From positions 246,578 through 310,577 of the forward strand of contig CAYGKO010000001.1 in the NCBI GenBank assembly GCA_964350735.1: 64,000 bases of DNA, read 5' to 3'. The translations under genes were made by a program, and so were the position numbers. Below the pieces are notes generated by a model, which was given only the letters and a program-made list of their open reading frames with translations, was not told where the DNA came from and did not search any database. Origin of the DNA: an uncultured Candidatus Saccharibacteria bacterium. GTDB taxonomy: Bacteria; Patescibacteriota; Minisyncoccia; Phycocordibacterales; UBA918. Position 1 is the stretch's first letter. The number at the start of each line of letters is the position of its first letter. This document shows positions 2,773-62,456 of the stretch, piece after piece.

Positions 2773-4458
2773 ATGTGTACGTACAACCTTAAAAAATCAT
2801 TGTTAGCATTTATCGTCGTTAGTGTTCTTGGGGTTAGCTTCGTTGTTCCATTTCCAGTCCATGCCCAAGCAGAAAACATGGATCGTGAGCAGATCATATC
2901 GCTCATTATGCAATTATTGGCAACGTTACAGACACAGTCGACTACGGCGTCACCAACCTTTGGTACTTCTCCTGAAGGAGGTTTCACATCATCAGGCTTT
3001 AGTGTTGGTGATGAAGTGAAAACTTCCGCTATCTTGCGGGTTCGTTCTGGACCAGGTGTAAATAATAGTTTAGTGAATAACATAGCGGCGTACACCACTG
3101 GCTCAATCGTGAGCGGCCCAAGATACGCCGATGGGTATACGTGGTGGTTAGTCCAATACAATAACGGTACGCGAGGTTGGAGTGCTGAAGGGTGGTTTAC
3201 AAAGCTTTCAAAGAACAATGTAACCCCATTAGTATTGGAAGATGTTTCGGTCACCGTTGCGGATCCCGATTCTGGAGATGTATATGAATATGGGGATCGA
3301 TTGACTGTTACATGGAACCAACAGGGTTCAGTACCAAGAAATAGCGAAGCGTGCGTTACGCTCTATAATGTACGTACAAAAAATTCCTTTGCTTTTCCAC
3401 CTAGTGGTGCAGGTTGTGTAGATATAGCTGGTGAAGAGCCGCAGAGTGGCGTTAGTGCTGAAGTGATTAGAAATTCTGGATACGACCTAGGTCCTGGAAA
3501 CTATCGGGCTGTTGTCACTTTGCGTGGACCAGGAGTGGGATACAAAGACGGAGCTATCATTGCAGAAGCTAAAAGTGGTACGTTTTATATAGAAGACGTA
3601 CTTAAGGAAGAGAAAGACTATGACATTGATATTACTTCACCTCGTCGAGGTGCTGCGTATGAAATTGGCGATAGAATCACAGTGAAATGGGACCATAATG
3701 ATCTGGAAGATGATGTGTTGAACGTCACGCTGCTTGGTCCACTTGATGGATATAAAGCAGAGCGACATATGGTGCAAAGTTATCTAATTGATAAAGGCTC
3801 AGCTTCATTTACAATTCCAGAAGCTGATAGCTTGGGGAGAGTTCGAGAAGGTCGCTACGAACTCTCTGTGTGGGTGACAAATATTAAAGATGGTAGTGCA
3901 AAGTCAGTGTCTGATGATGTGGTAATTGAAATCAATGACAAAAAGGATGTGAGTGCCGTAGATATTGAGTTTATTGATAACGATACGCGGATCAAGACAA
4001 GCTCACCTGCGCTGGGTGAATGGGGTAACTTTACGGTTGAGTTTGAGATTATTGCTGGAGATGAAGATGTATGGATAAAAAATTCACTTTATGGAACCCA
4101 TCAAAATAATTCTAGTTCGCTGTATCAGCCCAAGTATAGCGTTATGAAAGATGGTGAAGTTGTAAGCAACTTCACTGGTAACTTTTCGTCTATGCAGCCT
4201 GGCTTCCTTAGTACCGCTTCCTATGCATACCCAATTGCTGACGAAAAAAATGATAATTATTACGTTGTAAAAGCGGGGGACAGTGAAAAATTTACAGTTG
4301 ATATCACGATGACAGTAAAGGAATCCGCAGATTATCAAGTTCATATAGAGGGTCCACTGTATGTGAAGACTAAGTCTGGAGATACGGTTGTTCTCAATAT
4401 TGATGAAGATGAATTCAGGACGGCTGAGCTTTATATTGAAGGAGAAGACTCACTGTAA
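2773..4458 (+). CDS. secreted protein with bacterial SH3-like domain and repeated Ig-like modules
   Basis: Signal peptide MCTYNLKKSLLAFIVVSVLGVSFVVPFPVHA. SH3b-like segment RVRSGPGVNNS...GYTWWLVQYNNGTRGWSAEGWF. Internal repeats GDRLTVTWNQQG / GDRITVKWDHND. Confidence 0.6.
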   Translation: MCTYNLKKSLLAFIVVSVLGVSFVVPFPVHAQAENMDREQIISLIMQLLATLQTQSTTASPTFGTSPEGGFTSSGFSVGDEVKTSAILRVRSGPGVNNSLVNNIAAYTTGSIVSGPRYADGYTWWLVQYNNGTRGWSAEGWFTKLSKNNVTPLVLEDVSVTVADPDSGDVYEYGDRLTVTWNQQGSVPRNSEACVTLYNVRTKNSFAFPPSGAGCVDIAGEEPQSGVSAEVIRNSGYDLGPGNYRAVVTLRGPGVGYKDGAIIAEAKSGTFYIEDVLKEEKDYDIDITSPRRGAAYEIGDRITVKWDHNDLEDDVLNVTLLGPLDGYKAERHMVQSYLIDKGSASFTIPEADSLGRVREGRYELSVWVTNIKDGSAKSVSDDVVIEINDKKDVSAVDIEFIDNDTRIKTSSPALGEWGNFTVEFEIIAGDEDVWIKNSLYGTHQNNSSSLYQPKYSVMKDGEVVSNFTGNFSSMQPGFLSTASYAYPIADEKNDNYYVVKAGDSEKFTVDITMTVKESADYQVHIEGPLYVKTKSGDTVVLNIDEDEFRTAELYIEGEDSL

Positions 4459-5718: not shown

Positions 5719-6132
5719 ATGGCAACAATCAATCAATTAACAAAGAAGCGTCGTCGAGATCCGGCAACCAAGAGTAAGCGCGCTGCGCTGCACACTGGGT
5801 TCAATAAGATCAAAAACGAACCAAACAGCTACACCTCTCCATTTAAGCGGGGAGTGTGTACGCGAGTAACTACTAAGACTCCACGTAAGCCGAACTCTGC
5901 GATTCGAAAGATCGCTCGGGTACGACTCACCAACGGTCAGGAAATTACTGCGTATATCCCAGGTATCGGTCACTCACTACAGGAGCACTCAGTGGTTCTA
6001 GTACGAGGAGGACGAGTAAAGGATATTGGTGTGAACTACACTGTAGTTCGAGGTAAGTACGACGCTGGAGGTGTAAGCGACCGACGACGAGGACGTTCTC
6101 GTTACGGAGCTAAGATGCCCAAAGGTGAGTAG
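5719..6132 (+). CDS. rpsL: 30S ribosomal protein S12 (with C-terminal Arg/Gly-rich extension)
   Basis: [10 protein letters not shown]...[45 protein letters not shown] is canonical S12. Confidence 0.95.
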
Positions 6133-6286
6133 GACAGCGATTCCTAACAATTACAAATAGTTTATATTCGCTACAGATTATCGGATGCGATTCAACCCAA
6201 ATGGGTACGGAATCAAATTATGCGAAGAATGCAGAATTGTTTTCATAATTCTCCATTCTTAATTACCCACATTAAGAAATTACGTC

Positions 6287-7439: not shown

Positions 7440-8432
7440 TTACGAGGGGCGGCTACCGAATTTTTTGGCGGTTTTGTATAGGGCGTAGAGGAGCAGGAGT
7501 AGGAGGAGGAGTTGGACGAGTGAGGGGTGACCGAGGATCCAGGAGAGGCCGGCGAGAATGACGGTATAGATAATCGAAAAGGTGGTAGCGATGAATTGCC
7601 AGATGGTAGCTAGCCAGCCAGTAGAAGCGTCTTCAGTATTTTGGGTACGGGTGATGGTGCCGAAACCTTCGGGGGTAGTGGTGCCGGACGACGAGGCGAA
7701 GGAAACGCCCTGCGTTTCCTTCGCCTCGTCGTCGCTAGATCGTTCCGCTCGATACGAATCAAGTTGCCGTTTTGATTCGGTAATGGTTTCAGTCAGGCTT
7801 GCGAGCGCACCATTTGCTCGACTGGGAGTGAGGAACTGTTCGAGGCCAGCTGATTGGTTATCTGTTTCAGATAGAGATGGGCTACTATCTTCTGTTTCAG
7901 CCTCGTTCTCATTTTTTTCAGTTTCGGCTGGTTTGTTAAATAGTAGTGGTTCAGCGTCATCACCATCTGCAATTCCATCGCCGTCATCATCCTGATCGAC
8001 AAGATCACCTGTACCGTCGCTATCAGTATCACGATCAATAAAAATAGTATCTTTGGCTAAGGCAGAGGTAACGATGATTGGCTGAGTTCCGGAAGCAGTT
8101 GAAGAGATTTCCGTTCGGGATAAAGTAGCACTGATAGTACTGGTGCCGTAGCTCGGCGTCCAGTCTCCCCAGCTCTCAATGATACGGCCATCAAGCGCAT
8201 CAATGTTATTACGTTCCACACGCTCTTCGTTTACAAAAAACTCTACGGTACCAGATAAATCAGCCCCAGTATTGTTTCGCACTGCAACATAGACTCGCAC
8301 CGTGTCGCCCACAAAAAATGTGTCTTTGTCATACCAAAGCCCTTGCACAATACCGGCGTTAGAACCTTGCGCCCCACTGACCAGTGGTGTGAAAAGGATG
8401 ATGAGTGCTAGTAAGTATAGACGTAGCGACAT
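7440..8432 (-). CDS. secreted Asp-rich (calcium-binding-like DxDxDG repeats) protein with C-terminal TM / poly-Leu anchor
   Basis: Likely start MSLRLYLLALIILFTPLVSGAQG (signal peptide) at 8432. Segment DTDSDGTGDLVDQDDDGDGIADGDD. C-terminal hydrophobic helix LLLLLLLL followed by a basic tail. Confidence 0.6.
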   Translation of the reverse strand: MSLRLYLLALIILFTPLVSGAQGSNAGIVQGLWYDKDTFFVGDTVRVYVAVRNNTGADLSGTVEFFVNEERVERNNIDALDGRIIESWGDWTPSYGTSTISATLSRTEISSTASGTQPIIVTSALAKDTIFIDRDTDSDGTGDLVDQDDDGDGIADGDDAEPLLFNKPAETEKNENEAETEDSSPSLSETDNQSAGLEQFLTPSRANGALASLTETITESKRQLDSYRAERSSDDEAKETQGVSFASSSGTTTPEGFGTITRTQNTEDASTGWLATIWQFIATTFSIIYTVILAGLSWILGHPSLVQLLLLLLLLYALYKTAKKFGSRPS

Positions 8433-27421: not shown

Positions 27422-28513
27422 ATGATTGAAAAACCAGTCTCTCATAGAGAAAATTCCGAGAAAAGAAGAAGGAATATTGCAAAAATATTTGGTGCTTTTT
27501 TAGCTAGTCTGTCTCCGGAGGCAAAAGCTATAGAGATACCAGTCGATGCTAGCTGGTCTGAAGGTGCGGCGTTATTGCGGAATGCAGTTTTCGAGAAAGA
27601 AAATGAGCAGGCTGCCGTATTTGTGATTTCTGGATCGGGAGAAAGTGGTTGGGTATACGGAACCGAAGGAGATGAATACTCAGTGACGCGATTCAATGAT
27701 GAGATTGTAGAAAGCGCAGCGGGTAAAAAGTTACTGGCGGGTGAAGTTAAGCTGTGTCTAATTCACACGCATCCCAGGAGTCTTCCAGAGCCAGATTTCC
27801 AGATGGAGATTGGGCCATCAAGTCAAGATTTATATAACAATAATGACGATCGTCACTATTTTGACCTTGTCGAACTAGGCGCCTTTCCAGAATATGAAGA
27901 TCTTCATGCGCTTGAATCGTTTAACATAACTAAAGCAGTATTTACACCAAATGGAGTGTGGTACCACCAGTCAGCTGATTATAGTGCCCGACAAGCGTTT
28001 CTTCCGGCAGAGTATCCTAATGATGAACAGCATGCTGATTTAGGTAAGAAAGTCCAAGCTATGAGTTCACGTTTATTCAGAGATTTACTGGAGCAAGCAG
28101 AGAATCCGGAGCAAATATTTGAAAGTCTAATGGAAGAGAAGTTAGTTAATGAATTTGAATCTGACGAGGAGAAGAAGCGTTATCTGTTAGCAAGATTGAA
28201 GGGCAGAGTCAACCTTGCGTACCGAGGCGGTATTGCTGTAGCAGCTCAATCGCTCGCATTTTTGCACTTATGGGACAACCATCAAGAATTTAAAGATTTG
28301 ATTAAAACTAGTCGTTTATATATGGGATCACGTGGTTACTGGGAAGGTCAAGGCTGGAATATAGTTGATGATAACGATGGTGTTTTATCAGACGAAGAAA
28401 TTAGAAAAACGACCATGATGATTGCTACCACCGGTCAGCTTGGTCGGTTCGTAACTTACGAAGACTTAGTTAAGGAACCGGCCTGTGCTGGTGCTGAATT
28501 TCAACTGAACTAG
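27422..28513 (+). CDS. hypothetical protein with possible degenerate JAB/MPN-like metal motif (inserted in the spc operon)
   Basis: LCLIHTHPRS...GPSSQD resembles the RadC/JAB HxHPxG...PSxxD motif but with a 9-residue insertion; C-terminal about 200 aa acidic helical domain unknown. Confidence 0.5.
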   Translation: MIEKPVSHRENSEKRRRNIAKIFGAFLASLSPEAKAIEIPVDASWSEGAALLRNAVFEKENEQAAVFVISGSGESGWVYGTEGDEYSVTRFNDEIVESAAGKKLLAGEVKLCLIHTHPRSLPEPDFQMEIGPSSQDLYNNNDDRHYFDLVELGAFPEYEDLHALESFNITKAVFTPNGVWYHQSADYSARQAFLPAEYPNDEQHADLGKKVQAMSSRLFRDLLEQAENPEQIFESLMEEKLVNEFESDEEKKRYLLARLKGRVNLAYRGGIAVAAQSLAFLHLWDNHQEFKDLIKTSRLYMGSRGYWEGQGWNIVDDNDGVLSDEEIRKTTMMIATTGQLGRFVTYEDLVKEPACAGAEFQLN

Positions 28514-28696
28514 TGGCTTAATCACAAAGAGTAGTAATCTGTCAGATTGCATAAACACAAATCGCTGTAGCGGCAGGGAAGATTCGCCCCCTGCATGCAC
28601 GGCGGTTTTCTTTTTTAAATAATGGCTAGAAATATAGGTATTTTAATGGTATACTGCAGATACTAAATCTGACACTCACGAAAGGGAGGTCATCTC

Positions 28697-28942
28697 ATGC
28701 TGAAAATTGGCATTGCTATCGTCTTGATCGGTATGCTCATCTGGCTGCTGCAGTGGTTTGGCTACTTTATGCGGCGCTCATGGTATCGCCATGTGCCGAA
28801 GTTTCTGATCGCGAACGGCGCGTTTTTGCCTGTACCACTGCATCTCTGGGCTGACGGGCTCATCATTTTCATTCTCTGGATTCTTTTTCTGGAGGTTACC
28901 GATTGGTGGCGGGAACGTCGCCAGAAACTCAAGGAGGTCTGA
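28697..28942 (+). CDS. small 2-TM membrane protein
   Basis: SD AAAGGGAGG; two hydrophobic helices, basic C-terminus; own TGGTATACT promoter upstream. Confidence 0.55.
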   Translation: MLKIGIAIVLIGMLIWLLQWFGYFMRRSWYRHVPKFLIANGAFLPVPLHLWADGLIIFILWILFLEVTDWWRERRQKLKEV

Positions 28943-28967
28943 CCATGAACCCTTCAGGTTCTTTCGC

Positions 28968-28995
28968 TGCCGGAGCGTGCTCCGGCGGCTTTTTA
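28968..28995 (+). terminator. rho-independent terminator
   Basis: GCCGGAGCGTGCTCCGGCGGCTTTTT. Confidence 0.7.
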
Positions 28996-29055
28996 TTTGA
29001 GTCTCATGAAAAGTGGTGTTATGGTGGTCTCTATATATCTTAATCCTTATTATTT

Positions 29056-30423
29056 ATGCGCTACGTATCCATTTTCTTACTCTTCATCATGCTGCTTCCA
29101 GCTACTGCTTCAGCGCAGTCTGCTTCAGAAACCATGCTGCGCCAGCAACTGATTGCTTTGATTCAATCACTGCAGATCGAGTTGGCGGCCAGACTAGGGC
29201 AGCAGGGCATGCCAGTAGCAAACATTGACTCAGCTCGTTTACGTAGTCAGGATTTTTCAGAAGGGGTTAACTTTATCTATCCGGCCGATAAAGATTTTTC
29301 TTTCTATATGATTGAGAATGGTACTGAGTTTGGGGAAGATATCGATACGCGCTCGTGGCATATCGTATCCAACAATACATTGGTCGGAAATATCGACTTG
29401 GGCAACGAGTTGGTTAGTGAGGCATTTGAAGCGGCATTGGCAGTGGTGGAACTGGCGGCCATGTTTAGTGGCTTTTCTGACACCTCAATAGATATTGAGG
29501 ATCTGCCAAGGCAAAATGGGTACGACATCAAACATTTGGTAATTGAGGATGCTGGTGAAGTGGCCGGAACTTACATTGCTCAAAAAGAGCTTACCTACCG
29601 AGGGGAGTCATACATTGTTTTACTACGAATCGTGTACGGTAATTTAGAGAGCACACTTGAATCGGTAGCAGCACAATACGATACGGACTTTGATGATTTC
29701 TATTTCCCCACTAAGGCAGAAGCTCGCAACTTCTTCAACACAGTAGTGCGTGAAACAGAGTTTGATGTACGAGCAATCAGTCGGGTGATTGAAAATACTG
29801 ATGCTGAGTTGCGTGATTTGATTGAAGACGCGCGCGATGAAGGGCCAGAAGATGAAGAAGAATTTTCCGTTCGACCAGTAAGTAGAGCAGATCATTATCA
29901 AGGTAGTCTGAATGCAGAAGTGCAGTTGATTTCGTATATCGGCTTTGACGATCCATTTTCACGAAACTTGCACGAAACCCGGAGTCGAATTATGGATGAA
30001 TACGACGCACGTGAAGTGGTTTGGGTATATCGAAATTTTCCGATTGCTCAGTTACATCCAAATGGTCCAGCATTGGCAGCAGCAGCAGAGTGTGTGGCGA
30101 CTGAAGGAGGAAACACAGCGTACTGGAAGTTCGTTGATAAGATCTTCTCAGATCGCACTGCGTCAGCAAAAACGGACATGGACGACCTCCCGTCCTACGC
30201 CCGCAGTGCGGGAGTCTCCACCAGTCGATTTAATACGTGTGTTGAAGAAGGGGAAACTGAAGCTGTGGTCACTGCAGACTTTGAAGAAGGGGTAGCAGCT
30301 GGAGTAGTTGGGACACCGCATACCGTGGTGATTGTTGGTGATAAAAAAGGTGTTATTAACGGTGCTCAGCCGTATGCAGTTGTGAAGCAGACAATTGATA
30401 ACTTGCTTATGCAGTTAGACTAG
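29056..30423 (+). CDS. secreted DsbA-like thioredoxin-fold protein with degenerate active site (DPFS instead of CxxC), long N-terminal unknown domain
   Basis: Signal peptide MRYVSIFLLFIMLLPATASA. C-terminal about 170 aa match the DsbA/BdbD layout (EVQLISYIGFDDPFSRNLHET...VVGTPHTVVIVGDKKGVINGAQP) with the catalytic CPxC replaced by DPFS. Confidence 0.6.
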   Translation: MRYVSIFLLFIMLLPATASAQSASETMLRQQLIALIQSLQIELAARLGQQGMPVANIDSARLRSQDFSEGVNFIYPADKDFSFYMIENGTEFGEDIDTRSWHIVSNNTLVGNIDLGNELVSEAFEAALAVVELAAMFSGFSDTSIDIEDLPRQNGYDIKHLVIEDAGEVAGTYIAQKELTYRGESYIVLLRIVYGNLESTLESVAAQYDTDFDDFYFPTKAEARNFFNTVVRETEFDVRAISRVIENTDAELRDLIEDARDEGPEDEEEFSVRPVSRADHYQGSLNAEVQLISYIGFDDPFSRNLHETRSRIMDEYDAREVVWVYRNFPIAQLHPNGPALAAAAECVATEGGNTAYWKFVDKIFSDRTASAKTDMDDLPSYARSAGVSTSRFNTCVEEGETEAVVTADFEEGVAAGVVGTPHTVVIVGDKKGVINGAQPYAVVKQTIDNLLMQLD

Positions 30424-55029: not shown

Positions 55030-56319
55030 TTATCGATTAGATAGAATCAATAGAAGTAGGTTGCGCACGAGCGTTACCAATTCTTCACGAATCTTTTCTT
55101 CATCTGCGTCAGCTAGATCGGCATCTCCATTTAAGATGTCTTGCAAGCTAATGTCAGAATTCGAATCATTCATTTCGTTCTCTTCGGTAGTGTCTTCCAT
55201 CTGAATGTCTACCAGTTCAGTCGCTTCTTCGACAAGTTCTTTAGCTTCTTCAAGAGCGTCTTCGGCCTCTTCGTCGTCACCAGATTTGATTGCCTCTTCT
55301 GCATCGTCAAGCAATTCTTCGGTGTCTTCAATCAGTTCTTCTACCTTTCTTGATTCGGTAGCGAGCATTTCGTCCTCATCGTCTTCAAAGGCGTCTTTGA
55401 CAACATCAAGCATGTCTTCAATTTCTTTCAGTTCTGCTTCCAGGTCTTCATTTTTGCTGACTTCGTTCGCATCGTTTTCTTCTGCTGCGTCTAAAGCAGC
55501 TTCAGCTTCGTTAAGAAGTTCTAAAGCTTCGTTAGCTAGTTTTTTAGATTCAATATAATCTTCATCATCAAACTCGTCTTCTGCTTCTTCGTACAGATCG
55601 CGAGCTTCGTCGTAGAGTTCCTCAGCGTCTTCTGTGTCGACACCATCTACTTCTGCTTCATTGATTTCATCTTTTACATCTTCTAGTTCTTCTTCAACCT
55701 CCTCCAAAAGTTCTTCAGCCGCTTCTTCACGATCAGATTCCGTCATCGAGACGAAGTCATCTGCATCAGCATTTAGGACATCAAAGATTTCCTCAGCAAA
55801 TTCTTCAGCGGTTTCCGCTTCGGTAACTGCAGTTTCGTAGTCCTCTCCATCAAAAGCATCTTCTGCATCATCAATCGCTCGGTCTGCTTTGGTCATCAAA
55901 GCCAGTGCTTCGTCGATTTGTGTTTCTGGGATATCGTCATCGTCTTTAGCGATGTCGATTGCTTCTTCAGCTCCCTCGATGATGTCTTCTACATCATCAA
56001 TCTTTTCTCGAGCTCCGCCTTTTTCAAAACTATCATCAGCATCAACGGTAAGTACCTCTTCTACCTCATCTTCATCAATATCCAATTCGTTAGCAATTTT
56101 CTTAACAAGTTCGTCGAGGGTACCAACGTTATTGTACGAATACTCTTCTTTAACGTTATCTCCGTCATCATCGTATGAGACCTCCACTTCTGCCTCACTG
56201 TCTTCTACGGTAGCTTCGATTTCCAGATCATCATAAGCAAACGCCTGAAACGTGAGCCCGAAAAATAATAGTAGTGCGATTAGAGTGCTGTAGGCACTAT
56301 TTCTAATAGTAGTAATCAT
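55030..56319 (-). CDS. very acidic (about 40% Asp+Glu) coiled-coil protein with N-terminal signal/anchor
   Basis: MITTIRNSAYSTLIALLLFFGLTFQAFA then repeats EEAEDxFDDEDYE..A; antisense Ser-rich ORFs are low-complexity artefacts. Confidence 0.55.
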   Translation of the reverse strand: MITTIRNSAYSTLIALLLFFGLTFQAFAYDDLEIEATVEDSEAEVEVSYDDDGDNVKEEYSYNNVGTLDELVKKIANELDIDEDEVEEVLTVDADDSFEKGGAREKIDDVEDIIEGAEEAIDIAKDDDDIPETQIDEALALMTKADRAIDDAEDAFDGEDYETAVTEAETAEEFAEEIFDVLNADADDFVSMTESDREEAAEELLEEVEEELEDVKDEINEAEVDGVDTEDAEELYDEARDLYEEAEDEFDDEDYIESKKLANEALELLNEAEAALDAAEENDANEVSKNEDLEAELKEIEDMLDVVKDAFEDDEDEMLATESRKVEELIEDTEELLDDAEEAIKSGDDEEAEDALEEAKELVEEATELVDIQMEDTTEENEMNDSNSDISLQDILNGDADLADADEEKIREELVTLVRNLLLLILSNR

Positions 56320-56436: not shown

Positions 56437-56931
56437 ATGGAACAAATACTCAGTTGGTTATTTTCTATAGTACTGATTCTTTTCCCTCAGGGAGCTGTTG
56501 AAACTAGTGGCGTAGAACCAATATCTGACTCAGATGTTGCTGCTGTTATAAAAGTTGTTGATGGTGATACGATCGATGTTCGCTATACGAACGGGGAAGA
56601 GCAGCGGGTAAGATACATCGGTATTGATACTCCTGAGCCCTATGCGAACAGTGAACTAGAATGTTATGCGCTCGAAGCGACTGAGGCTAATAAAATTTTG
56701 GTAGAGAATCAAGAGGTGCGCCTAGTGAAAGATGTAGAAAATACTGATCGCTACGGTCGATTACTCCGGTATGTATACATAGACGATGTTTTTGTGAATG
56801 CTGCCTTAGTACAAGATGGGTATGCTACTGCACTGCGTATAAAGCCAAATGTTGCTCAGTATGACTTTTTAAAATCATTGGAACGAGAGGCAGAAAATAG
56901 CGCTATTGGAATGTGGGCGAACTGTCTTTAG
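56437..56931 (+). CDS. secreted thermonuclease (staphylococcal nuclease homologue)
   Basis: VVDGDTIDVRY...QRVRYIGIDTPE...DRYGRLLRYVYIDDVFVNAALVQDGYA...GMW. Confidence 0.85.
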   Translation: MEQILSWLFSIVLILFPQGAVETSGVEPISDSDVAAVIKVVDGDTIDVRYTNGEEQRVRYIGIDTPEPYANSELECYALEATEANKILVENQEVRLVKDVENTDRYGRLLRYVYIDDVFVNAALVQDGYATALRIKPNVAQYDFLKSLEREAENSAIGMWANCL

Positions 56932-56986: not shown

Positions 56987-57625
56987 ATGAAATTTAACCA
57001 AGGACTAGGAGTGGCAGCAATTATTGTGATTATTGCAATTTTAGCTATTGGTGGTGCAGGAGCATATCAGTATAGCCAACAGAGTAAAGTGGCAGCTGAC
57101 GTTAGTGTTGAAATGCAAGAAGAGATGGAGATGGTTGAAGCAACTAAGGTTGAGGTTACAAAAGAGCTGGCAAAACTACAGGCAGACCTTCGAGCGTCTG
57201 CTGGAGTCAACGTAGCTGCGGCATTGGAGACGGTGGCGAAGATCAAGGCAATTCTAGTCACTGCGCAGGCTTCAGTTAGTGCCGAGGCGCAAGCTGAGTT
57301 TGATGACATTGCAGCCCAGGTTACAGAGTTGGAAACAGCTATTACAGGCGGGTCTGAAGCAGCGATTGAAAGTTCAGTCGGCGCACTACTTGGTGAGCTT
57401 GACTCAGCTAGTGCAGATGAAGTAGAAGCCCAAGCTGAGGAAGAGATGGATGCAGAAATGGAGTCTAGTGATACGGATGAAGAAGTGGAAGCAGAAGGTG
57501 AAATGGAGGCCACATCTACTAATACTTCTATAGAATCTGATGCAGCATTAGAAGCAGATATGGATTTGCTGGAAACTGATATGGAAGCATCTATGTCAGC
57601 CGAGTCTGCTGTAATGGCAAACTAA
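56987..57625 (+). CDS. membrane-anchored Ala/Glu-rich acidic protein
   Basis: TM LGVAAIIVIIAILAIGGAGAY then a low-complexity acidic helix. Confidence 0.5.
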   Translation: MKFNQGLGVAAIIVIIAILAIGGAGAYQYSQQSKVAADVSVEMQEEMEMVEATKVEVTKELAKLQADLRASAGVNVAAALETVAKIKAILVTAQASVSAEAQAEFDDIAAQVTELETAITGGSEAAIESSVGALLGELDSASADEVEAQAEEEMDAEMESSDTDEEVEAEGEMEATSTNTSIESDAALEADMDLLETDMEASMSAESAVMAN

Positions 57626-57640: not shown

Positions 57641-57670
57641 AAAGAACCGCCCTAATAGGGCGGTTTTTGT
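57641..57670. terminator. rho-independent terminator
   Basis: AAAGAACCGCCCTA-ata-GGGCGGTTTTTGT. Confidence 0.85.
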
Positions 57671-57693
57671 ATGTGGAGCAGTTTACTAGAGGT

Positions 57694-57750
57694 AAAACCT
57701 CTTTGATAGAAATGTAATGTTCAAATTTCTTAAAGATCGTTGATTTGTGG
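57694..57750. repeat. 57 bp repeat, copy 1
   Basis: AAAACCTCTTTGATaGAAATGtAaTGTTCAAATTTCtTAAAGATcGTTGATTTGTGG. Confidence 0.8.
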
Positions 57751-57800
57751 TAAAAGACTTAACACTTTACATATGTTTATACAAAGTATATACTTTGTAC

Positions 57801-58040
57801 ATGAAAACTAAAATCCAAAAATGGGGTAACAGCTTAGGGGTACGCTTGCCCAAAAGTATTACTGAACAAAAATCATTGCGAGCAGGCCTTGGTGTGTCTG
57901 TGGTGATTAAGAATGGTCAAATTGTTATTGAGCCAGCTGAAGAAGATGTTACATTAGAGGCTCTTCTGTCTGATGTCTTAGCAGATAATTTGCACAATGA
58001 AACTGAATGGTCCGATGTACGTGGTAATGAGATATGGTAA
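57801..58040 (+). CDS. mazE: MazE/AbrB-family antitoxin
   Basis: MKTKIQKWGNSLGVRLPKSI; overlaps the toxin gene by 7 nt; the listed 57747 start is probably too long. Confidence 0.8.
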   Translation: MKTKIQKWGNSLGVRLPKSITEQKSLRAGLGVSVVIKNGQIVIEPAEEDVTLEALLSDVLADNLHNETEWSDVRGNEIW

Positions 58041-58378
58041 ATAAACAATATGTTCCAGATACAGGCGACTTAGTATGGGTTGATTTCAATCCAGCTAAGG
58101 GTAGAGAACAGGCAAAAGTGCGACCTGCTATTGTGATTTCTCCCAAAAATTACAATCAAAAGACCAATCTAGCTATTATGTGCCCAATCACTTCAGTACA
58201 AAAAGGATATCCGTTTGAGGTTGAGGTTAAAGATAAAAAAGTGGCTGGTGTTATTTTATCTGACCACGTTAGATCACTAGACTGGAAAGCGAGAAATGTA
58301 AAACATATTGCCAAAGCAAAACCATCTGTGCTTTCTGAAGTGCAAACAAAACTTCTTTTGTTACTGAAAGCTAAATAA
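58034..58378 (+). CDS. mazF: MazF/PemK-family toxin endoribonuclease
   Basis: YVPDTGDLVWVDFNPAKGREQAKVRPAIVISP...AIMCPITS...SDHVRSLDWKAR. Confidence 0.85.
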   Translation: MVNKQYVPDTGDLVWVDFNPAKGREQAKVRPAIVISPKNYNQKTNLAIMCPITSVQKGYPFEVEVKDKKVAGVILSDHVRSLDWKARNVKHIAKAKPSVLSEVQTKLLLLLKAK

Positions 58379-58396
58379 AAAGACTTACCCGAAAGT

Positions 58397-58427
58397 AAGT
58401 TTTCTATTCTTCCATGTCTGGTGGAAG
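58397..58427. repeat. att-like partial copy of the tmRNA 3' end plus flank (copy C)
   Basis: AAGTTTTCTATTCTTC-CATGTCTGGTGGAA. Confidence 0.6.
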
Positions 58428-58496
58428 ACTTTGCACCAAGTTGACCAAGTTTTTAATGACCTAAGGGAATATAAAAACGGAAATACCCTGGTGGTG

Positions 58497-58553
58497 AAAA
58501 CCTCTTTGATTGAAATGGAGTGCCCCAGTTTTCTGAAGATTGTTGATTTGTGG
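58497..58553. repeat. 57 bp repeat, copy 2
   Basis: AAAACCTCTTTGATTGAAATGGAGTGccCcAgTTTtCTgAAGATTGTTGATTTGTGG. Confidence 0.8.
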
Positions 58554-58613
58554 TGAATAAAAATAATCCCCGACGCAGAACGCCGAGGATTAAGGTTGAT
58601 GTCGCCTGTCCGT

Positions 58614-59807
58614 TTAGTGCGGATTCAGTGACGAAAGGTGTGCTCCGCCCAGAAACTTGGACTGAACCGTCACCTCGTTTTCGGGAGATGCGGTGGTCCG
58701 TCCAATCACATGTGGATCATGTCCGTCTGCTCTTGCTTCACTCACCACTCGCTCAACGTCACTTTCGGAACAGATGATCATCAGACCACAACCGCCGTGG
58801 AAGGTGCCATGACATTCGAAGTCGGTCATCGGACTACCCGTCTTGCTGGCGAGTTGCTGAGCTTCCAGGAGTAATGGCGCCGGTTCAGGCATTGAGTCAA
58901 GGATAGCACCAACACCTTCAGGCAAGATCTCCACGAGTTTGCTCCAGATGCCGCCACCTGTGATGTGGGCGACGCCGCGAAGTTCAGCCAGTGGGGTGTT
59001 GAGTGTGCCATCAAGTTGCCAGCCGTTGAGGCGGGCGATTGTACCAGCGTAGCTCTGCGAGGGAATCACCAGTTTCTCGATAAAGGCCCGTGCATCAGGA
59101 TTGCCCATGATGGTGTTCACATCGGATCCCCAAGTATCGAGAATGATGTTGGTGAACTTGGTTCCACCATTGCAGCGGTACCCCTTGTCCCTGAACCCAA
59201 CAATCACCATGCCTGGTGTGACGGTTGCGCCACTCGGCTCCTTGCTCTTTGACGCCAAGCCAAGACAGGTCGCGCCCCACGTCAAGATCAGCTGGCTTGG
59301 GTCACCAGTATCACAAAACGCGGTGATGCTGTGTTTCATGACTGCGGTTTCGCCGGTCATCAGGACAAGGTTGGACGAACCAAGAGCGTCGCTAAATCCT
59401 GTGATGAGTGCTTCGCACAGCGGCCAGTTCTCGTTGGTAATGCCTTTCATGTCGATGTTACTCGACAGCATCAGTACAGGGAGTCCACCACGACACGCCA
59501 GATCGTCGGCATTCATGGTAATGACCTCCCAGCCAATACCACGAAATGCCTCTGGTGTATTGGCGAGCGTGAAGAACTGTGGCTTTCCGCCAGCTCCGTC
59601 GCTTTGCGCCACTTCGTATATTTCGCCACGAAGCATTGCTTCAAGTACCAGACGGTTCCAGGTAAACCCGTCCATGGCACGCATGCCACCACCACCACGT
59701 TCGATGGTGATGGCGGTTGAGTTTTTGAAACTGCCGACGCAGATTTTGCGGGCAAGTTCGGAGAACCGGTCGCCCGGTGCAACGATTTGAGTATGATAGT
59801 CGTCCAT
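58614..59807 (-). CDS. PurM-like (AIR synthase-related: PurM/ThiL/HypE/SelD superfamily) ATP-dependent enzyme, islet cargo
   Basis: N-terminal domain ...EVITMNADDLACRGGLPVLM; C-terminal AIRS_C-type HITGGGIWSKLVEILPEG; 397 aa. Confidence 0.6.
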   Translation of the reverse strand: MDDYHTQIVAPGDRFSELARKICVGSFKNSTAITIERGGGGMRAMDGFTWNRLVLEAMLRGEIYEVAQSDGAGGKPQFFTLANTPEAFRGIGWEVITMNADDLACRGGLPVLMLSSNIDMKGITNENWPLCEALITGFSDALGSSNLVLMTGETAVMKHSITAFCDTGDPSQLILTWGATCLGLASKSKEPSGATVTPGMVIVGFRDKGYRCNGGTKFTNIILDTWGSDVNTIMGNPDARAFIEKLVIPSQSYAGTIARLNGWQLDGTLNTPLAELRGVAHITGGGIWSKLVEILPEGVGAILDSMPEPAPLLLEAQQLASKTGSPMTDFECHGTFHGGCGLMIICSESDVERVVSEARADGHDPHVIGRTTASPENEVTVQSKFLGGAHLSSLNPH

Positions 59808-59904
59808 CGGGACACCTCTCTGTAAAGATCAAAAGATCTGGTTAATATCAGTCGATACTATGCTGTTTAAACCGAAATAATGCAAGAGAAAACTAGGTTT
59901 CTTC

Positions 59905-59946
59905 AAACTTCCATATTCTTCTATATATTTCCATGTCTGGTGGAAA
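59905..59946. repeat. att-like partial copy of the tmRNA 3' end plus flank (copy B)
   Basis: AAACTTCCATATTCTTCTATATATTTC-CATGTCTGGTGGAA aligns with AAACTTTCATATATTTCTACATACTTC-TATGTCGGTGGAG at 61001-61040. Confidence 0.6.
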
Positions 59947-59961
59947 TCTTTGAACCAAGTT

Positions 59962-60017
59962 AAAACCTCTTTGATTGAAATGGAGTGTTCAAATTTCCTT
60001 AAAATTGTTGATTGGTG
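59962..60017. repeat. 57 bp repeat, copy 3
   Basis: AAAACCTCTTTGATTGAAATGGAGTGTTCAAATTTCCTTAAAATTGTTGATTGGTG. Confidence 0.8.
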
Positions 60018-60042
60018 TAATTAGTCTACTATAGTTTTTCTG

Positions 60043-60459
60043 CTATTTAATTTTTCCTCCCTGCCACTCAGCCACAGTAGGAGCCTTGTCATATTTCATT
60101 TGGTTCAAAACAATCACATTCATCTTATCTTCCATGAACTGGCAAAGCGGAATGAGTCTCTCAACACATTCGTTACCTAGCTTGGTTAAAGAGTATTCTA
60201 CTTTCGGTGGAATTAATTTATAATCCCGTCTTTGTAGCAAGCCGTCTCGCTCTAGATTACGCAGAGTTTGCGAAAGCATTCTATCTGATACACCTTGTAT
60301 GGATTTCTTTATGTTTCCAAAACGCATGGTTGGGTTATTTTTGAGCAGTCTCAAAACAGTTAATCCCCAAAGACTTGAAATACTTTTACTGATATCCCTG
60401 CTGGGACAACGTTGGTTATAGAGGTCGCCTTGACGAGGTAGTTCCTTAGGTAATTGCAT
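60043..60459 (-). CDS. HxlR-family winged-helix transcriptional regulator
   Basis: CPSRDISKSISSLWGLTVLRLL...RFGNIKKSIQGVSDRMLSQTLRNLERDGLLQRR...PPKVEYSLTKLG. Confidence 0.8.
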   Translation of the reverse strand: MQLPKELPRQGDLYNQRCPSRDISKSISSLWGLTVLRLLKNNPTMRFGNIKKSIQGVSDRMLSQTLRNLERDGLLQRRDYKLIPPKVEYSLTKLGNECVERLIPLCQFMEDKMNVIVLNQMKYDKAPTVAEWQGGKIK

Positions 60460-60548
60460 AATCCGATACTTACTTTTTTGTTAGTACTTGTTAAATATGA
60501 TTCACTAATTTAAAGTTAGTGTATATCAAATAAACACAAAAGGAAACT

Positions 60549-60932
60549 ATGAAAATCTACGATTCAACATATTACAGTTTTGAACTGGACAATAACTATA
60601 TGATTTTTCACTGGAAAGACAGTACCGACCAGATGAGCTTACAGGATTTTAAAGATGCATTGATGAATTTTGGTGGATTTGTAATTGAGCACCAGACACC
60701 AAAGCTTCTCGTTTTTACGGAAAACTTTAAGTTCAAGACACCAGAAGAAGGACACGAATGGCGTAAAAATGAATATAACCAACGAATCAAAAAAGTTGGA
60801 AATGTGAAGCAAGCTCTCATCATGAAGGAAGAATTTTTACAATATGTTGAGGACGAAATTGATAGTGTGGTACCAGTTAGATATTTCTCGAGCGAAAGCG
60901 AAGCAAGAGCTTGGTTAGATAGTTCTGAGTAG
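60549..60932 (+). CDS. hypothetical protein divergent from the HxlR gene
   Basis: 127 aa ORF; no motif; AT-rich. Confidence 0.45.
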   Translation: MKIYDSTYYSFELDNNYMIFHWKDSTDQMSLQDFKDALMNFGGFVIEHQTPKLLVFTENFKFKTPEEGHEWRKNEYNQRIKKVGNVKQALIMKEEFLQYVEDEIDSVVPVRYFSSESEARAWLDSSE

Positions 60933-61033
60933 TATACAGATCACATACGCACGTTATGTCTCAGTAGATTTTAAAAAAGCACCCAATTGGGAGCTTTTTT
61001 AAACTTTCATATATTTCTACATACTTCTATGTC

Positions 61034-61439
61034 GGTGGAGATGGCGGGAGTTGAACCCGCGTCCGAATCAGGATTCCAAATGTGAGTCTACAGTGCGTAG
61101 ACGCTTCTTTGATTTAAAACTAGTAGCTATAGAAGTGACAAAACACTACTGGTTCGAGTTCGTACAATCTCGATCTGCTACGTGAACGGCGTAATAGTAT
61201 CCAGTCTCGTGTTTATTCTACCCAATCAGCCGTATGAGACGTTTAACTGATGAGCATCGCATCGGCGAGCGGATGGTTACGCTACAGCGGGTGCGAATCC
61301 GAACGCGTTAGCGTACGGACTTGGTATTGCTTTGTTTGCAAATACGGGTGGAACCTTTTAACGAATTGATTCCAATTTCGACACTGCACACAATGGGCAC
61401 GCTAACCGTCGATGCCTGGCATCCCCGGAAAGTTTTTAA
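61034..61439 (-). ncRNA. ssrA: tmRNA (transfer-messenger RNA)
   Basis: Minus-strand 5' end GGGGATGCCAGGCATCGACGG and 3' end GGACGCGGGTTCAACTCCCGCCATCTCCACC match the tmRNA tRNA-like domain (E. coli: GGACGCGGGUUCAACUCCCGCCAGCUCCACCA). Putative resume codon GCA about nt 88 in ...GUAUUUGCAAAC..., reading ANKAIPSPYANAFGFAPAVA-stop. smpB lies 570 nt upstream. Confidence 0.85.
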
Positions 61440-61472
61440 AGTATTTAAAAACTTTCCGGGAAGGGTGTGATT
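61438..61472 (-). promoter_or_regulatory. perfect 16 bp hairpin abutting the tmRNA 5' end (terminator of the upstream small gene / processing-site structure)
   Basis: CCGGAAAGTTTTTAAA-gta-TTTAAAAACTTTCCGG overlapping the first two G of tmRNA. Confidence 0.5.
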
Positions 61473-61523: not shown

Positions 61524-61730
61524 TTATTTTCGCCTCTTTGTTTCTGATTTCAGAAACTCCGCGCCACGGATGCTGTCTTCATGTTTTTGGCAGCAATATA
61601 TTTTCCGTGCAAGAGTAGCCATTTTAAGAACGCTGCGGGCGAGGACGTTTCGCTTCTCTTTTTGCTGTCGCACGAAGTCTGCTTCGCACATGAGGCAAAT
61701 ACAGTCAGGCTCGCAAGTTTCTACTTTCAT
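61524..61730 (-). CDS. small Cys-rich protein (possible zinc ribbon) between smpB and ssrA
   Basis: Strong SD GGGGAAAGAATA-ATG and TACAAT -10; MKVETCEPDCICLMCEADF...YCCQKH. Confidence 0.5.
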   Translation of the reverse strand: MKVETCEPDCICLMCEADFVRQQKEKRNVLARSVLKMATLARKIYCCQKHEDSIRGAEFLKSETKRRK

Positions 61731-62009: not shown

Positions 62010-62456
62010 TTATTGATTTTTCAAGATACGGTCGATGTCGCGTTTGGTGTCGCGCTCTTTGAGGGTTTCGCGCTTGTCAGTCTTTTTCTTTCCGCGCGCC
62101 ACGGCTATTTCTAGCTTGATATTTCTGCCCGCATTATACAATCGAATTGGGACTATTGTCAAACCAGCTTGGTGTGACTGCACGTCGAGCTCGGACAGCT
62201 CTTTTTTTGACAAGAGGAGCTTGCGCGGCTGCAGGACATCGTGACCTTTGGGGGTGTTGGCTTCTTGGTAGTGCGTGATGGTGGCACCTTTCAGCCATGC
62301 TTCGCCGTTTAGGATAGAGATGTATGAGCCGATGAGTGAACCATGACCTTGGCGCACGGCTTTCACCTCATGGCCCGCGAGCACGATGCCAGCCTCATAT
62401 TTTTCAATGAGTTCAAAGTCAAAACGAACGCGTTTGTTGTTGATGTAGGTAGTCAT
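62010..62456 (-). CDS. smpB: SsrA-binding protein SmpB
   Basis: NKRVRFDFELIEKYEAGIVLAGHEVKAVRQGHGSLIGSYISILNGEAWL...PRKLLLSKKELSEL...GLTIVPIRLY...IAVARGKKKTDKR. Confidence 0.9.
   Translation of the reverse strand: MTTYINNKRVRFDFELIEKYEAGIVLAGHEVKAVRQGHGSLIGSYISILNGEAWLKGATITHYQEANTPKGHDVLQPRKLLLSKKELSELDVQSHQAGLTIVPIRLYNAGRNIKLEIAVARGKKKTDKRETLKERDTKRDIDRILKNQ

What the first reader, a model, noticed from the sequence alone, without database searches (positions are those of the whole stretch)
57670..61472. tmRNA gene followed by three tandem integrase-less islets bounded by att-like copies of the tmRNA 3' end and a 57 bp repeat
Unannotated tmRNA found on the minus strand (61034..61439) with smpB upstream. 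Downstream of its 3' end, the terminal sequence TATGTCGGTGGAG plus about 27 nt of AT-rich flank recurs as CATGTCTGGTGGAA plus a homologous flank at 59905-59946 and 58397-58427, and degenerately at about 57670. Each copy is preceded by a conserved 57 bp repeat (57694, 58497, 59962). This is the footprint expected for serial site-specific integration at the ssrA 3' end, yet no integrase is present. The units are only 0.8-1.5 kb and carry mazEF, a PurM-like enzyme, and an HxlR regulator plus an unknown gene. They may be decayed islands or miniature elements mobilised in trans.
Basis: seen in the sequence. Interest (0 to 1): 0.7.

Follow-up and report, generated by a model that had tools for sequence, protein, structure and literature searches.

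The report
Cassette array anchored at tmRNA gene
Right after the tmRNA gene of this ultra-small (Patescibacteria-type) bacterium sit three tiny recombinase-less gene cassettes of a previously undescribed, widely shared family; the same cassettes turn up in unrelated genomes, so they appear to be how these minimal genomes trade accessory genes.

Summary
tmRNA (61033-61426, minus strand) and smpB are confirmed. The three "57 bp" repeats and the att-like flanks are non-random and occur nowhere else in the 64 kb window.

Anatomy: three cassettes, each running from one GTGGA pentamer to the next. GTGGA is the complement of the last tmRNA bases, TCCAC.
- mazEF, 748 bp
- PurM-like, 1519 bp
- HxlR plus SpoIIAA-like, 1095 bp

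Each cassette starts with a conserved translated micro-ORF (the "57 bp repeat"). Each ends with an AT-rich tmRNA 3' trailer, usually followed by a terminator hairpin.

The same junction element forms same-orientation arrays of up to six copies next to tmRNA in at least 17 Patescibacteria genomes and 23 metagenome contigs. The window's HxlR cassette recurs at 90% nucleotide identity in a genome whose only alignable flanking gene is 65% identical, and the similarity stops exactly at the GTGGAs.

No recombinase is present in any cassette. Two large-serine-recombinase families integrate at the identical GTGGA in related genomes and interleave with these cassettes. They are therefore the leading candidates to act in trans, but this is unproven.

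Best reading: serial site-specific insertion of miniature, trans-mobilised cassettes. It is a new variant of tandem ssrA islands, SCC-like arrays and cis-mobilisable elements (CIMEs).

The parts
61033..61426 (-). tmRNA (ssrA) gene. Its 3' end ...CCATCTCCACC is the docking point.
   Evidence: ARAGORN; Rfam RF00023, 109.8 bits
62010..62456 (-). smpB, the partner of tmRNA and part of the conserved chromosomal flank
   Evidence: Pfam SmpB, E 4e-49. The same smpB-tmRNA arrangement is seen in related loci.
61035..61039 (.). GTGGA pentamer at the tmRNA junction (attL-like). It is the complement of the tmRNA-terminal TCCAC and is the inferred crossover block.
   Evidence: It is the only sequence common to all four junctions. 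Similarity to L061 stops here.
59940..61034 (.). Cassette A (1095 bp). It contains micro-ORF copy 1 (59938-60024), HxlR regulator 60043-60459(-), SpoIIAA-like ORF 60549-60932(+), terminator hairpin 60970-61003 and trailer repeats 61004-61034.
   Evidence: Pfam; inverted repeat I4. It is 90.3% identical over 1083 nt to L061 and 86.6% to L043, each with different neighbours.
58421..59939 (.). Cassette B (1519 bp). It contains the long-form micro-ORF copy 2 (58419-58556, with the optional 54-nt module at 58443-58496), the PurM-like AIRS-domain gene 58614-59807(-) with its own terminator at 58564-58592, and trailer repeats 59905-59939.
   Evidence: Pfam AIRS/AIRS_C. GC is 54-56% against 35-40% in the neighbouring cassettes. 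Terminator scan. The in-frame module is also present in L004, L009, L018 and L020.
57673..58420 (.). Cassette C (748 bp), the oldest and most distal. It contains a degenerate micro-ORF copy 3 (57678-57753, with a frameshift and a stop at 57715), mazE 57798-58040(+), mazF 58034-58378(+), a hairpin at about 58382-58401 and trailer repeats 58400-58420.
   Evidence: Pfam MazE/PemK; frame analysis. A homologous mazEF cassette occurs in L012/L047 (73% over 700 nt), L028 and L063.
57645..57665 (.). Bidirectional terminator of the chromosomal flank (B'). It is the inferred original sequence downstream of tmRNA, now 3.36 kb away from it.
   Evidence: Terminator scan. The flank left of the GTGGA at 57673 is unrelated to the cassette trailers. 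The analogous flank-to-cassette joints are seen in L011, L013 and L015.

Best explanation
The 3.36 kb between the tmRNA gene and its former terminator is an array of three miniature, recombinase-less gene cassettes. They belong to a family that is widespread in Patescibacteria.

Each cassette is a discrete unit that runs from one GTGGA to the next. GTGGA is the complement of the last tmRNA bases, TCCAC. At the end far from tmRNA a cassette carries a conserved small coding sequence: W-x-x-L-x-x-V, then 0 to 4 copies of an 18-aa module, then KTSLIEMECANFLKIVDLW and a stop. At the end near tmRNA it carries a roughly 35-nt AT-rich trailer made of 10-nt repeats, usually followed by a terminator hairpin. 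This gives the tmRNA gene a new 3' trailer and terminator after each insertion.

New cassettes enter by site-specific recombination at the very end of tmRNA and push older ones away from it. The recombinase is supplied in trans.

Shown: the anatomy, the family, the array architecture, the exact unit boundaries and the transfer of a whole cassette between distant genomes.

Inferred: the order of insertion and the role of the trailer and terminator.

Most speculative (about 0.4): that the enzyme is a large serine recombinase like those that integrate at the same GTGGA in related genomes.
For: 1. The family exists and is linked to tmRNA. A 20-nt core search gave 17 Patescibacteria genomes from Saccharibacteria, Nomurabacteria, Paceibacterota, Kaiserbacteria and Minisyncoccia and 23 metagenome contigs. 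A profile search finds 2-6 same-orientation copies per locus. Wherever a tmRNA is in reach (window, L004, L009-L013, L015, L018, L021, L028, L029-31, L042, L047, L051, L054, L062) it lies at the same end on the opposite strand.

2. The unit is discrete and mobile. Cassette A is 90.3% identical over 1083 nt to L061, while the only other alignable gene (SET) is 65% identical. Identity is 14/40 just outside the left GTGGA and 22/27 inside it; it is 39/45 up to the right GTGGA and 9/40 beyond it. The same cassette has three different sets of neighbours in the window, L043 and L061. Other cargos recur across lineages, including mazEF, a putative HigBA-like toxin-antitoxin pair (the antitoxin shows only a sub-threshold HTH_3 match) and a 281-aa acyltransferase.

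3. Insertion is at the tmRNA end. A terminator plus inverted tmRNA-end fragment abuts tmRNA in L010, L018 and L021. A similar flank abuts the cassette micro-ORF at GTGGA in L011, L013 and L015, near-identical between L013 and L021. Layered junctions in L011 and L029 show older material displaced away from tmRNA. The window and L012/L047 share the distal mazEF cassette but differ in the proximal ones.

4. The micro-ORF is translated. Over 50 unique copies the synonymous:nonsynonymous ratio is 0.88 in its own frame against 0.07-0.49 in the other five frames. A stop falls at codon 19 in 37 of 50 copies. Diverged copies show Ser TCT<->AGT and Leu CTG/TTG/CTT/CTA switches.

5. Trailer and terminator. 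In 21 of 32 distinct trailers a hairpin with z <= -2.4 follows TCCAC by about 35 nt, and the hairpins have several unrelated sequences.

6. The recombinase type. The identity block shared by all junction classes is only 5 nt. Two serine-recombinase families that are 20% identical to each other integrate at exactly this GTGGA (L031 against the empty L029; L028; L061; L066). They stack in tandem and interleave with these cassettes, giving joints of recombinase arm|GTGGA|micro-ORF and trailer|GTGGA|recombinase-element arm.

7. Precedent. Dehalococcoides has tandem ssrA islands driven by a serine recombinase, and 15 of them lack an integration module (PMC3146451).
Against: - No recombinase was found in the array, or among the window ORFs checked for one. 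The rest of the genome is unseen.
- The cassette arms are not significantly similar to the attP arms of either serine-recombinase family (shuffle p 0.1-0.9). Canonical recognition by those particular enzymes is therefore unsupported.
- The junction contains a 7-7-7 palindrome, ATTTCCA TGTCTGG TGGAAAT, which becomes TCTTCCA TGTCTGG TGGAAGA in the second copy. This looks more like a tyrosine-recombinase core.
- No circular form, empty site or within-population polymorphism was seen for these cassettes.
- The micro-ORF has no conserved start codon and no homologue of known function.
- Cassette B lacks a convincing terminator hairpin.
- Repeats of 26-33 nt that are conserved between species could let a metagenome assembler join cassettes from different genomes. 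The independent Logan unitigs break at the repeats, so they do not confirm the cassette order.
Confidence: 0.65

Rival explanations
1. The mechanism is integron-like, driven by a tyrosine recombinase. A dedicated or housekeeping (Xer-type) tyrosine recombinase encoded elsewhere cuts on either side of the 7-nt spacer of the junction palindrome and inserts cassette circles at the tmRNA end, as IntI does at attI.
For: The core is TTCCA-N7-TGGAA, with 7-nt arms that change together between the two window copies. Three direct 10-nt repeats abut it and could be accessory binding sites. The array architecture and the cargo (toxin-antitoxin pairs, small enzymes, unknown ORFs) resemble chromosomal integrons.
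Against: The inferred exchange point is GTGGA, which lies in one arm of the palindrome rather than at a spacer border. All junction classes share only 5 nt. The palindrome is perfect in only some copies. The single strands do not fold better than shuffles (z about -1), so there is no attC-like hairpin. No tyrosine recombinase was seen in any of about 45 loci.
Confidence: 0.2
2. Exchange is by homologous recombination. The cassettes are not actively excised or integrated. The conserved 110-165 nt junctions act as portable homology, so DNA taken up by natural transformation swaps, adds or deletes cassettes, as with Neisseria minimal mobile elements.
For: The junctions are 77-90% identical within and between genomes and long enough for RecA. 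Patescibacteria are reported to be naturally competent (own knowledge; Wang et al. 2023 Cell, not checked here). No cognate recombinase has been found.
Against: Similarity between the window and L061 ends at the GTGGA pentamers on both sides, not somewhere inside the junction. The trailers just outside belong to different cassettes (14/40 identity). The joints of chromosomal flank to cassette and of recombinase element to cassette share only GTGGA, too little for homologous exchange. This mechanism does not explain how the first cassette arrived.
Confidence: 0.12
3. The cassettes are decayed islands. Each was once a full-size integrase-bearing island at ssrA that lost its integrase and most of its genes, and the array is now fixed.
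For: Tandem islands at tmRNA are common, and integrase loss is known (PMC3146451). Copy 3 of the micro-ORF is degenerate. A serine-recombinase remnant lies next to tmRNA in L004.
Against: Dozens of cassettes with unrelated cargo have the same two ends and no recombinase fragments. The micro-ORF is under purifying selection. A whole 1.1-kb cassette is shared at 90% identity between genomes whose flanks are at most 65% identical. Real recombinase elements at the same site have different ends.
Confidence: 0.08
4. The array is an assembly artefact. The three cassettes come from different co-occurring Patescibacteria and were joined through the conserved junction repeats.
For: Cassette B has 54-56% GC against 35-40% for its neighbours. 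The independent Logan unitigs of the same run end at the repeats. The junctions are conserved across species.
Against: Multi-cassette arrays with the same layout occur in many independent assemblies, including a complete chromosome (CP060229, L015) and contigs of 100 kb or more. The exact repeats are only 26-33 nt long, shorter than typical reads. A foreign GC content is expected for acquired cargo.
Confidence: 0.05

Closest known systems
Dehalococcoides ssrA-specific genomic islands (PMC3146451)
   Same: Both are tandem units immediately downstream of the single tmRNA gene. [quoted passage not shown] The integrase family at the site is a large serine recombinase. About half of those islands lack an integration module and were proposed to be cis-mobilisable.
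   Different: Those islands are roughly an order of magnitude larger (own recollection, not checked here). Their repeat is 20 bp of ssrA with insertion in the T-loop. Here units are 0.6-6 kb, mostly one or two genes. Only 5-7 nt of tmRNA are repeated, at its extreme 3' end. Each unit also carries a conserved micro-ORF and a replacement tmRNA trailer and terminator. No autonomous member with these ends was found.
SCCmec and pseudo-SCC composite arrays at rlmH (orfX) in staphylococci (own knowledge)
   Same: Cassettes stack in tandem at the 3' end of one conserved gene. The CcrAB large serine recombinases mobilise them. Elements without ccr are thought to be moved in trans.
   Different: The target is a protein-coding gene and the elements are 3-60 kb. 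The short direct repeats restore the last rlmH codons. There is no micro-ORF or terminator module, and the host phylum is different.
Integron gene cassettes and integrase-less attC clusters (CALINs)
   Same: Both are arrays of 0.5-2 kb promoter-poor cassettes separated by a family of similar 60-150 nt sites in one orientation. Toxin-antitoxin cassettes are common. New cassettes are thought to enter at one end.
   Different: There is no IntI and no attI next to an integrase gene. The junction does not fold into an attC-type hairpin. The junction is partly protein-coding. The docking site is an RNA gene.
Cis-mobilisable elements (CIMEs) of Streptococcus thermophilus at fda (own knowledge)
   Same: They are recombinase-less segments flanked by att sites, accreted in tandem with an integrase-bearing element, and potentially mobilised by it.
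   Different: CIMEs derive from integrative conjugative elements and share that element's att sequence. Here the cassette arms differ from the arms of the neighbouring serine-recombinase elements.
Xer-dependent elements (IMEX, pdif modules) (own knowledge)
   Same: They are small integrase-less modules, often carrying toxin-antitoxin pairs, that use a host recombinase.
   Different: By eye the junction contains no 28-nt dif-like site (11-6-11 with ATAA/TTAT inner arms). Sites are in direct rather than alternating orientation.

Membership tests
Tandem tmRNA-gene islands / CIME-type recombinase-less islands | Located immediately 3' of the ssrA gene, in tandem | tested here: met
   Three units lie between 57673 and 61039 and abut tmRNA. 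The same layout is seen in at least 15 other loci.
Tandem tmRNA-gene islands / CIME-type recombinase-less islands | [quoted passage not shown] | tested here: not met
   Only GTGGA(G), 5-7 nt, is shared with tmRNA. Rfam does not score the internal junctions as tmRNA fragments. The longer repeat is trailer sequence outside the gene.
Tandem tmRNA-gene islands / CIME-type recombinase-less islands | att sites match those of a co-resident integrase-bearing element that could act in trans | tested here: inconclusive
   The crossover pentamer is the same as for two serine-recombinase families, but the arms are not significantly similar.
Tandem tmRNA-gene islands / CIME-type recombinase-less islands | Excision or integration demonstrated | not testable with these tools
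   This needs read-level or experimental data.
Integron / CALIN | attC site: an imperfect hairpin with R''/L''-L'/R' pairing and a GTTRRRY core | tested here: not met
   Single-strand DNA folds of all three junctions, on both strands, give z -0.9 to -1.4, and only an 8-bp local palindrome forms. No GTTRRRY/RYYYAAC pair was found by eye.
Integron / CALIN | IntI tyrosine integrase adjacent to the array (integron), or absent (CALIN) | tested here: not met
   No tyrosine recombinase is next to any array examined.
SCC-like cassette chromosome (large-serine-recombinase driven) | Integration at the 3' end of one conserved gene, with short direct repeats and tandem stacking | tested here: met
   Tandem recombinase elements are seen in L066.
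SCC-like cassette chromosome (large-serine-recombinase driven) | A cognate large serine recombinase is on the element or on a neighbouring element | tested here: inconclusive
   Absent from the window. Present beside arrays in L004, L028, L061, L063 and L031. Whether it is cognate is not shown.
Transposon / miniature inverted-repeat element | Terminal inverted repeats and a target-site duplication | tested here: not met
   The unit ends share only the 5-7 nt palindrome arms. There is no duplicated target beyond GTGGA.
Xer-dependent element (IMEX / pdif module) | A 28-nt dif-like XerC/XerD site at the boundaries | not tested
   Only inspected by eye, and no ATAA-N6-TTAT core was seen. The dif site of this organism is unknown.

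The most novel reading that the evidence does not exclude
Patescibacteria have a dedicated, integron-like gene-capture platform that has not been described. The last bases of the tmRNA gene serve as the single docking site. Cassettes of one or a few genes are captured one after another. Each cassette brings its own replacement tmRNA trailer and terminator, so the essential RNA stays functional. Each also encodes a conserved 23-64 aa peptide that takes part in, or regulates, recombination. The reaction is carried out by a recombinase acting in trans, either a t(m)RNA-end-specific large serine recombinase whose own reading frame crosses attP, or an unknown enzyme.
Probability: 0.35. Interest if true: 0.85.

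Novelty: new variant of a known kind. Interest (0 to 1): 0.72.

Why it matters
Patescibacteria (the Candidate Phyla Radiation, CPR) have genomes of roughly 1 Mb or less and few recognised mobile elements. How they gain and shuffle accessory genes is therefore poorly understood.

A conserved cassette array at the one tmRNA gene, shared across several class-level lineages, would be a main route of gene flow for these organisms. Its cargo includes toxin-antitoxin pairs, regulators, small enzymes and, in larger units, restriction and Shedu defence genes. It would also be a ready-made neutral insertion site for the newly tractable Saccharibacteria.

The finding also shows three things of wider interest:
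- A mobile unit can be reduced to cargo plus about 150 nt of ends.
- Such a unit must repair the 3' end of the RNA gene it lands on.
- Serine-recombinase genes in this phylum are routinely split from their own C-terminal tails by integration.

Tried and rejected
1. The micro-ORF as the detached C-terminal tail of a recombinase gene that crosses attP, as the serine-recombinase genes here do. Rejected for now. None of 5.8 billion proteins longer than 64 aa carries this tail. None reads into antisense tmRNA in that frame. A full profile search of 1.84 billion representatives gave only 40-143 aa ORFs plus one presumably spurious 3869-aa hit.

2. Homology between cassette arms and serine-recombinase attP arms, seen by eye (shared ACTTTGAAC, TCTT..ATGAAAT). 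Not significant by shuffling, p 0.1-0.9. A resemblance between the start of the 54-nt module and the left end of the L031-type element (18/27) is kept only as a lead.

3. An attC-like or other extended hairpin. The folds are no better than shuffles.

4. A known RNA family at the junctions. Nothing approached any family's gathering score.

5. The junction as a promoter element. Promoter-like hits were no more frequent than in shuffles, 7 against 7.2.

6. Carriage on phages or plasmids. There were no matches in IMG/VR, INPHARED or PLSDB.

7. Hits of the 20-nt core in Alphaproteobacteria and Rhodoferax. These are chance matches inside an oxidoreductase gene and lack the rest of the element.

8. 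Pfam on the micro-ORF peptides gave nothing. Pfam on large cargo ORFs found no recombinase.

9. Literature searches for a prior description returned only the Dehalococcoides islands as relevant.

10. Structure prediction of the peptide was not attempted.

Full report
CHECK OF THE OBSERVATION

The tmRNA call is solid. ARAGORN finds it at 61034-61426 on the minus strand with a normal tag peptide. Rfam's tmRNA model scores 109.8 bits against a gathering score of 47. smpB lies upstream on the same strand at 62010-62456.

The repeat finder returns three copies of a 60-nt repeat at 57690, 58493 and 59958, 77-85% identical. It also returns two copies of a 43-nt block at 58400 and 59919, 84% identical. 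Pattern and BLAST searches find no further copy in the 64 kb window, against 0.00 expected by chance.

The 40 nt that end in GTGGA beside tmRNA match the copy at 59905-59944 at 33 of 40 positions, and no shuffle out of 5000 reached that score. The flank of the distal copy near 57670 is unrelated, with only GTGGAG shared.

The PurM-like unit has 54-56% GC against 35-40% around it.

No recombinase domain is present in the array. None appeared in 20 window ORFs scanned, in the precomputed annotation of 46.9-58.5 kb, or by tblastn with two serine-recombinase families.

WHAT THE REPEATS ARE

Searching one representative genome per species for a 20-nt core of the repeat returned 25 loci. Eight are chance hits inside an oxidoreductase gene of Alphaproteobacteria and Rhodoferax. 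Seventeen are Patescibacteria from Saccharibacteria, Nomurabacteria, Paceibacterota, Kaiserbacteria and Minisyncoccia, and they share the whole element of about 110-165 nt. A metagenome scan added 23 contigs.

A profile of the repeat shows that most loci hold arrays of two to six copies in one orientation, spaced 0.6-2 kb apart and occasionally up to 6 kb. Where a tmRNA gene is within reach it is always at the same end of the array on the opposite strand, as in the window.

The '57 bp repeat' always ends in TGA, TAA or TAG in one frame. Across 50 unique copies, codon differences in that frame are 3574 synonymous to 4058 non-synonymous. The other five frames give ratios of 0.07-0.49. The stop falls at codon 19 in 37 of 50 copies, and diverged copies switch Ser TCT to AGT and use all Leu codon families.

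The repeat is therefore the end of a translated small ORF: W-x-x-L-x-x-V-KTSLIEMECANFLKIVDLW. The 54 extra bases in the window's middle copy are an in-frame 18-codon module that occurs 0 to 4 times in other copies.

The ORF has no conserved start codon apart from a frequent TTG. It has no Pfam match. No protein longer than 143 aa shares it in 5.8 billion or 1.84 billion sequences, apart from one presumably spurious 3869-aa hit. Window copy 3 has a frameshift and a premature stop.

THE OTHER END OF EACH CASSETTE

Read on the tmRNA strand, every junction is TCCAC(C)(A), then about 35 nt of AT-rich sequence built from 10-nt repeats (CATGGAAAT / ATATAGAAGA / ATATGGAAGT). Usually a hairpin followed by a T-run comes next. 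In 21 of 32 distinct examples the hairpin is much more stable than shuffles (z <= -2.4), and several unrelated hairpin sequences occupy the same position.

The same arrangement follows the real tmRNA gene in the window (hairpin at 60970-61003). I infer that each cassette carries a replacement 3' trailer and terminator for the tmRNA gene it lands on. Window cassette B lacks a convincing hairpin.

UNIT BOUNDARIES AND MOBILITY

The only sequence common to the tmRNA junction, the internal junctions and the distal junction is GTGGA, at 61035, 59940, 58421 and 57673.

The window's HxlR/SpoIIAA-like cassette recurs in L061, from the assembly GCA_041736805.1, at 90.3% identity over 1083 nt. The only other nucleotide match between the two regions, outside junction repeats, is a SET-domain gene at 65%.

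Identity is 14/40 just left of the left GTGGA and 22/27 just right of it. It is 39/45 up to the right GTGGA and 9/40 beyond it. In L061 the cassette sits between a GDSL-lipase cassette and a serine-recombinase element. In contig L043 (86.6% identical) it sits between a terminator and a pseudo-tmRNA end. In the window it sits between the PurM-like cassette and tmRNA.

A mazEF cassette like the window's occurs in L012/L047 (73% over 700 nt, while smpB is not alignable at the nucleotide level), in L028 and in L063. A putative HigBA-like pair and a 281-aa acyltransferase also recur across lineages; the HigBA label is my own, and the antitoxin shows only a sub-threshold HTH_3 match.

None of the larger cargo ORFs tested is a recombinase.

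WHERE CASSETTES ENTER

In L010, L018/L029 and L021 the tmRNA 3' end is followed by a terminator that is preceded by an inverted tmRNA-end fragment. In L011, L013 and L015 a similar flank (near-identical between L013 and L021) is joined at GTGGA to the micro-ORF of a cassette instead. Layered loci such as L011 and L029 show earlier junctions displaced away from tmRNA by later insertions.

In the window the distal GTGGA is preceded by the bidirectional terminator 57645-57665 of the neighbouring gene. This is plausibly the original tmRNA terminator.

These facts fit serial insertion at the very end of tmRNA, with the oldest cassette furthest away. That order is an inference.

WHICH ENZYME

Comparing two samples of one Saccharibacteria species shows a 7-kb element inserted exactly at this GTGGA. 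It carries a 554-aa large serine recombinase with Resolvase, Recombinase and Zn-ribbon domains.

A second family, only 20% identical, does the same in L028, L061 and L004, where it is a remnant. It has more than 400 homologues across Patescibacteria, and most of their C-termini read into antisense tmRNA or tRNA.

In both families the recombinase ORF crosses attP. Integration therefore replaces its natural 33-45 aa tail, which stays at the other end of the element.

These elements stack in tandem (L066) and interleave with the cassettes. They produce joints of recombinase arm|GTGGA|micro-ORF and trailer|GTGGA|recombinase-element arm. One recombinase, P0013, even ends in micro-ORF DNA read in another frame.

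A 5-nt identity block, the identical crossover, and the Dehalococcoides precedent (tandem ssrA islands driven by a serine recombinase, half of them without an integration module; PMC3146451) make a serine recombinase acting in trans my leading candidate.

Against this, the cassette arms are not significantly similar to either family's attP arms. The junction also contains a TTCCA-N7-TGGAA palindrome whose arms co-vary between the two window copies, as a tyrosine-recombinase core would. I put the serine-recombinase assignment at about 0.4.

COMPARISON WITH KNOWN SYSTEMS

The array works like tandem ssrA islands, cis-mobilisable elements (CIMEs) and SCC/pseudo-SCC arrays. In its cassette size and cargo it resembles a chromosomal integron.

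It fails the defining tests for an integron: there is no attC hairpin and no IntI. It also fails the test for a classical tRNA/tmRNA island, because only 5-7 nt of the gene are repeated and Rfam sees no tmRNA fragment at internal junctions. It has no transposon ends.

Three features are not part of any described system I could find in the literature searches or recall:
- the micro-ORF
- the cassette-borne tmRNA trailer and terminator
- the reduction of a mobile unit to one or two genes

I rate it a new variant of a known kind.

CAVEATS

- The window comes from a metagenome. Independent Logan unitigs of the same run reproduce the pieces but break at the repeats, so cassette order is not independently confirmed.
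- The searches required an exact 20-24 nt core. The family's spread is therefore a lower bound, and the apparent invariance of that core is partly an ascertainment effect.
- No excision product, empty site for this genome or cognate recombinase was observed.

Noticed in passing
L031 9651-11315 with its tail at about 4262-4360; L028 5235-6887 with its tail at about 826-965; L061 10001-11644 with its tail at about 7897-8040; L066 8001-9659: In two large-serine-recombinase families of Patescibacteria the recombinase ORF runs across attP. Integration at a tmRNA or tRNA 3' end swaps the natural, conserved 33-45 aa C-terminal tail for residues read from the antisense RNA gene (for example ...CGDGGNRTPV). 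Most of the 120 homologues listed end this way. This may control the direction of recombination.
   Followed up: partly
L010 about 6040-6250; L018 6388-6790 (same as L029 10817-11215); L021 2242-2470; L011 6358-6550: A 130-220 nt segment lies between a pseudo-tmRNA 3' end (22-27 nt, broken in the T-loop: GGAGTTG|GTCACG..ACTAAG) and the real tmRNA. It contains an inverted tmRNA-end fragment (CGCTCCGCC.GTTCAA..CC-hairpin-CCATCTCCAC) and a terminator, and together with the real 3' end these form a palindrome of about 30 bp. It may be the footprint of a third kind of element that uses the T-loop.
   Followed up: partly
window 58443-58496; proteins P0002, P0127, P0129, P0131: The optional 54-nt (18-codon) module of the micro-ORF is tandemly repeated 0 to 4 times in different copies. 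Each unit ends in CTGGTGGTG, which resembles the junction core CTGGTGGAA. Its start resembles the left end of L031-type recombinase elements (18 of 27 nt). Significance was not established.
   Followed up: partly
window 61424-61460: A perfect 17-nt inverted repeat, CCCGGAAAGTTTTTAAA / TTTAAAAACTTTCCGGG, overlaps the first bases of the tmRNA gene and its upstream region.
   Followed up: no
window 55030-56319(-) and 56987-57625(+): Two extremely acidic predicted proteins (long runs of D/E, with a signal-peptide-like or transmembrane start) and no Pfam match flank a secreted-nuclease-like gene (SNase, 56437-56931).
   Followed up: no
window 27422-30423, inside the ribosomal-protein gene cluster at 23.6-34.5 kb: The ribosomal-protein operon is interrupted by three non-ribosomal ORFs: a 363-aa protein with no Pfam match, an 81-aa membrane protein and a 455-aa DsbA/thioredoxin-like protein.
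   Followed up: no
L063 4680-5108 and 15333-15761; L064 9026-9454; L065 338-766: IS200/IS605-type Y1 transposase genes (142 aa) lie inside or beside the cassette array of one lineage, together with an IS3 element. They were not seen in other arrays, so they are probably secondary insertions.
   Followed up: no
L009, L012, L022, L028, L041, L054, L057, L060 (trailers listed): In many cassettes the terminator hairpin is followed on the tmRNA strand by a conserved TTTTGGTATACT, about 10-20 nt before the start of a cargo gene on that strand. This looks like a junction-borne -10 box that drives the cargo gene.
   Followed up: no
window 61524-61730(-): A 68-aa Cys-rich ORF with no Pfam match lies between tmRNA and smpB. 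Small unrelated ORFs occupy the same position in related loci.
   Followed up: no
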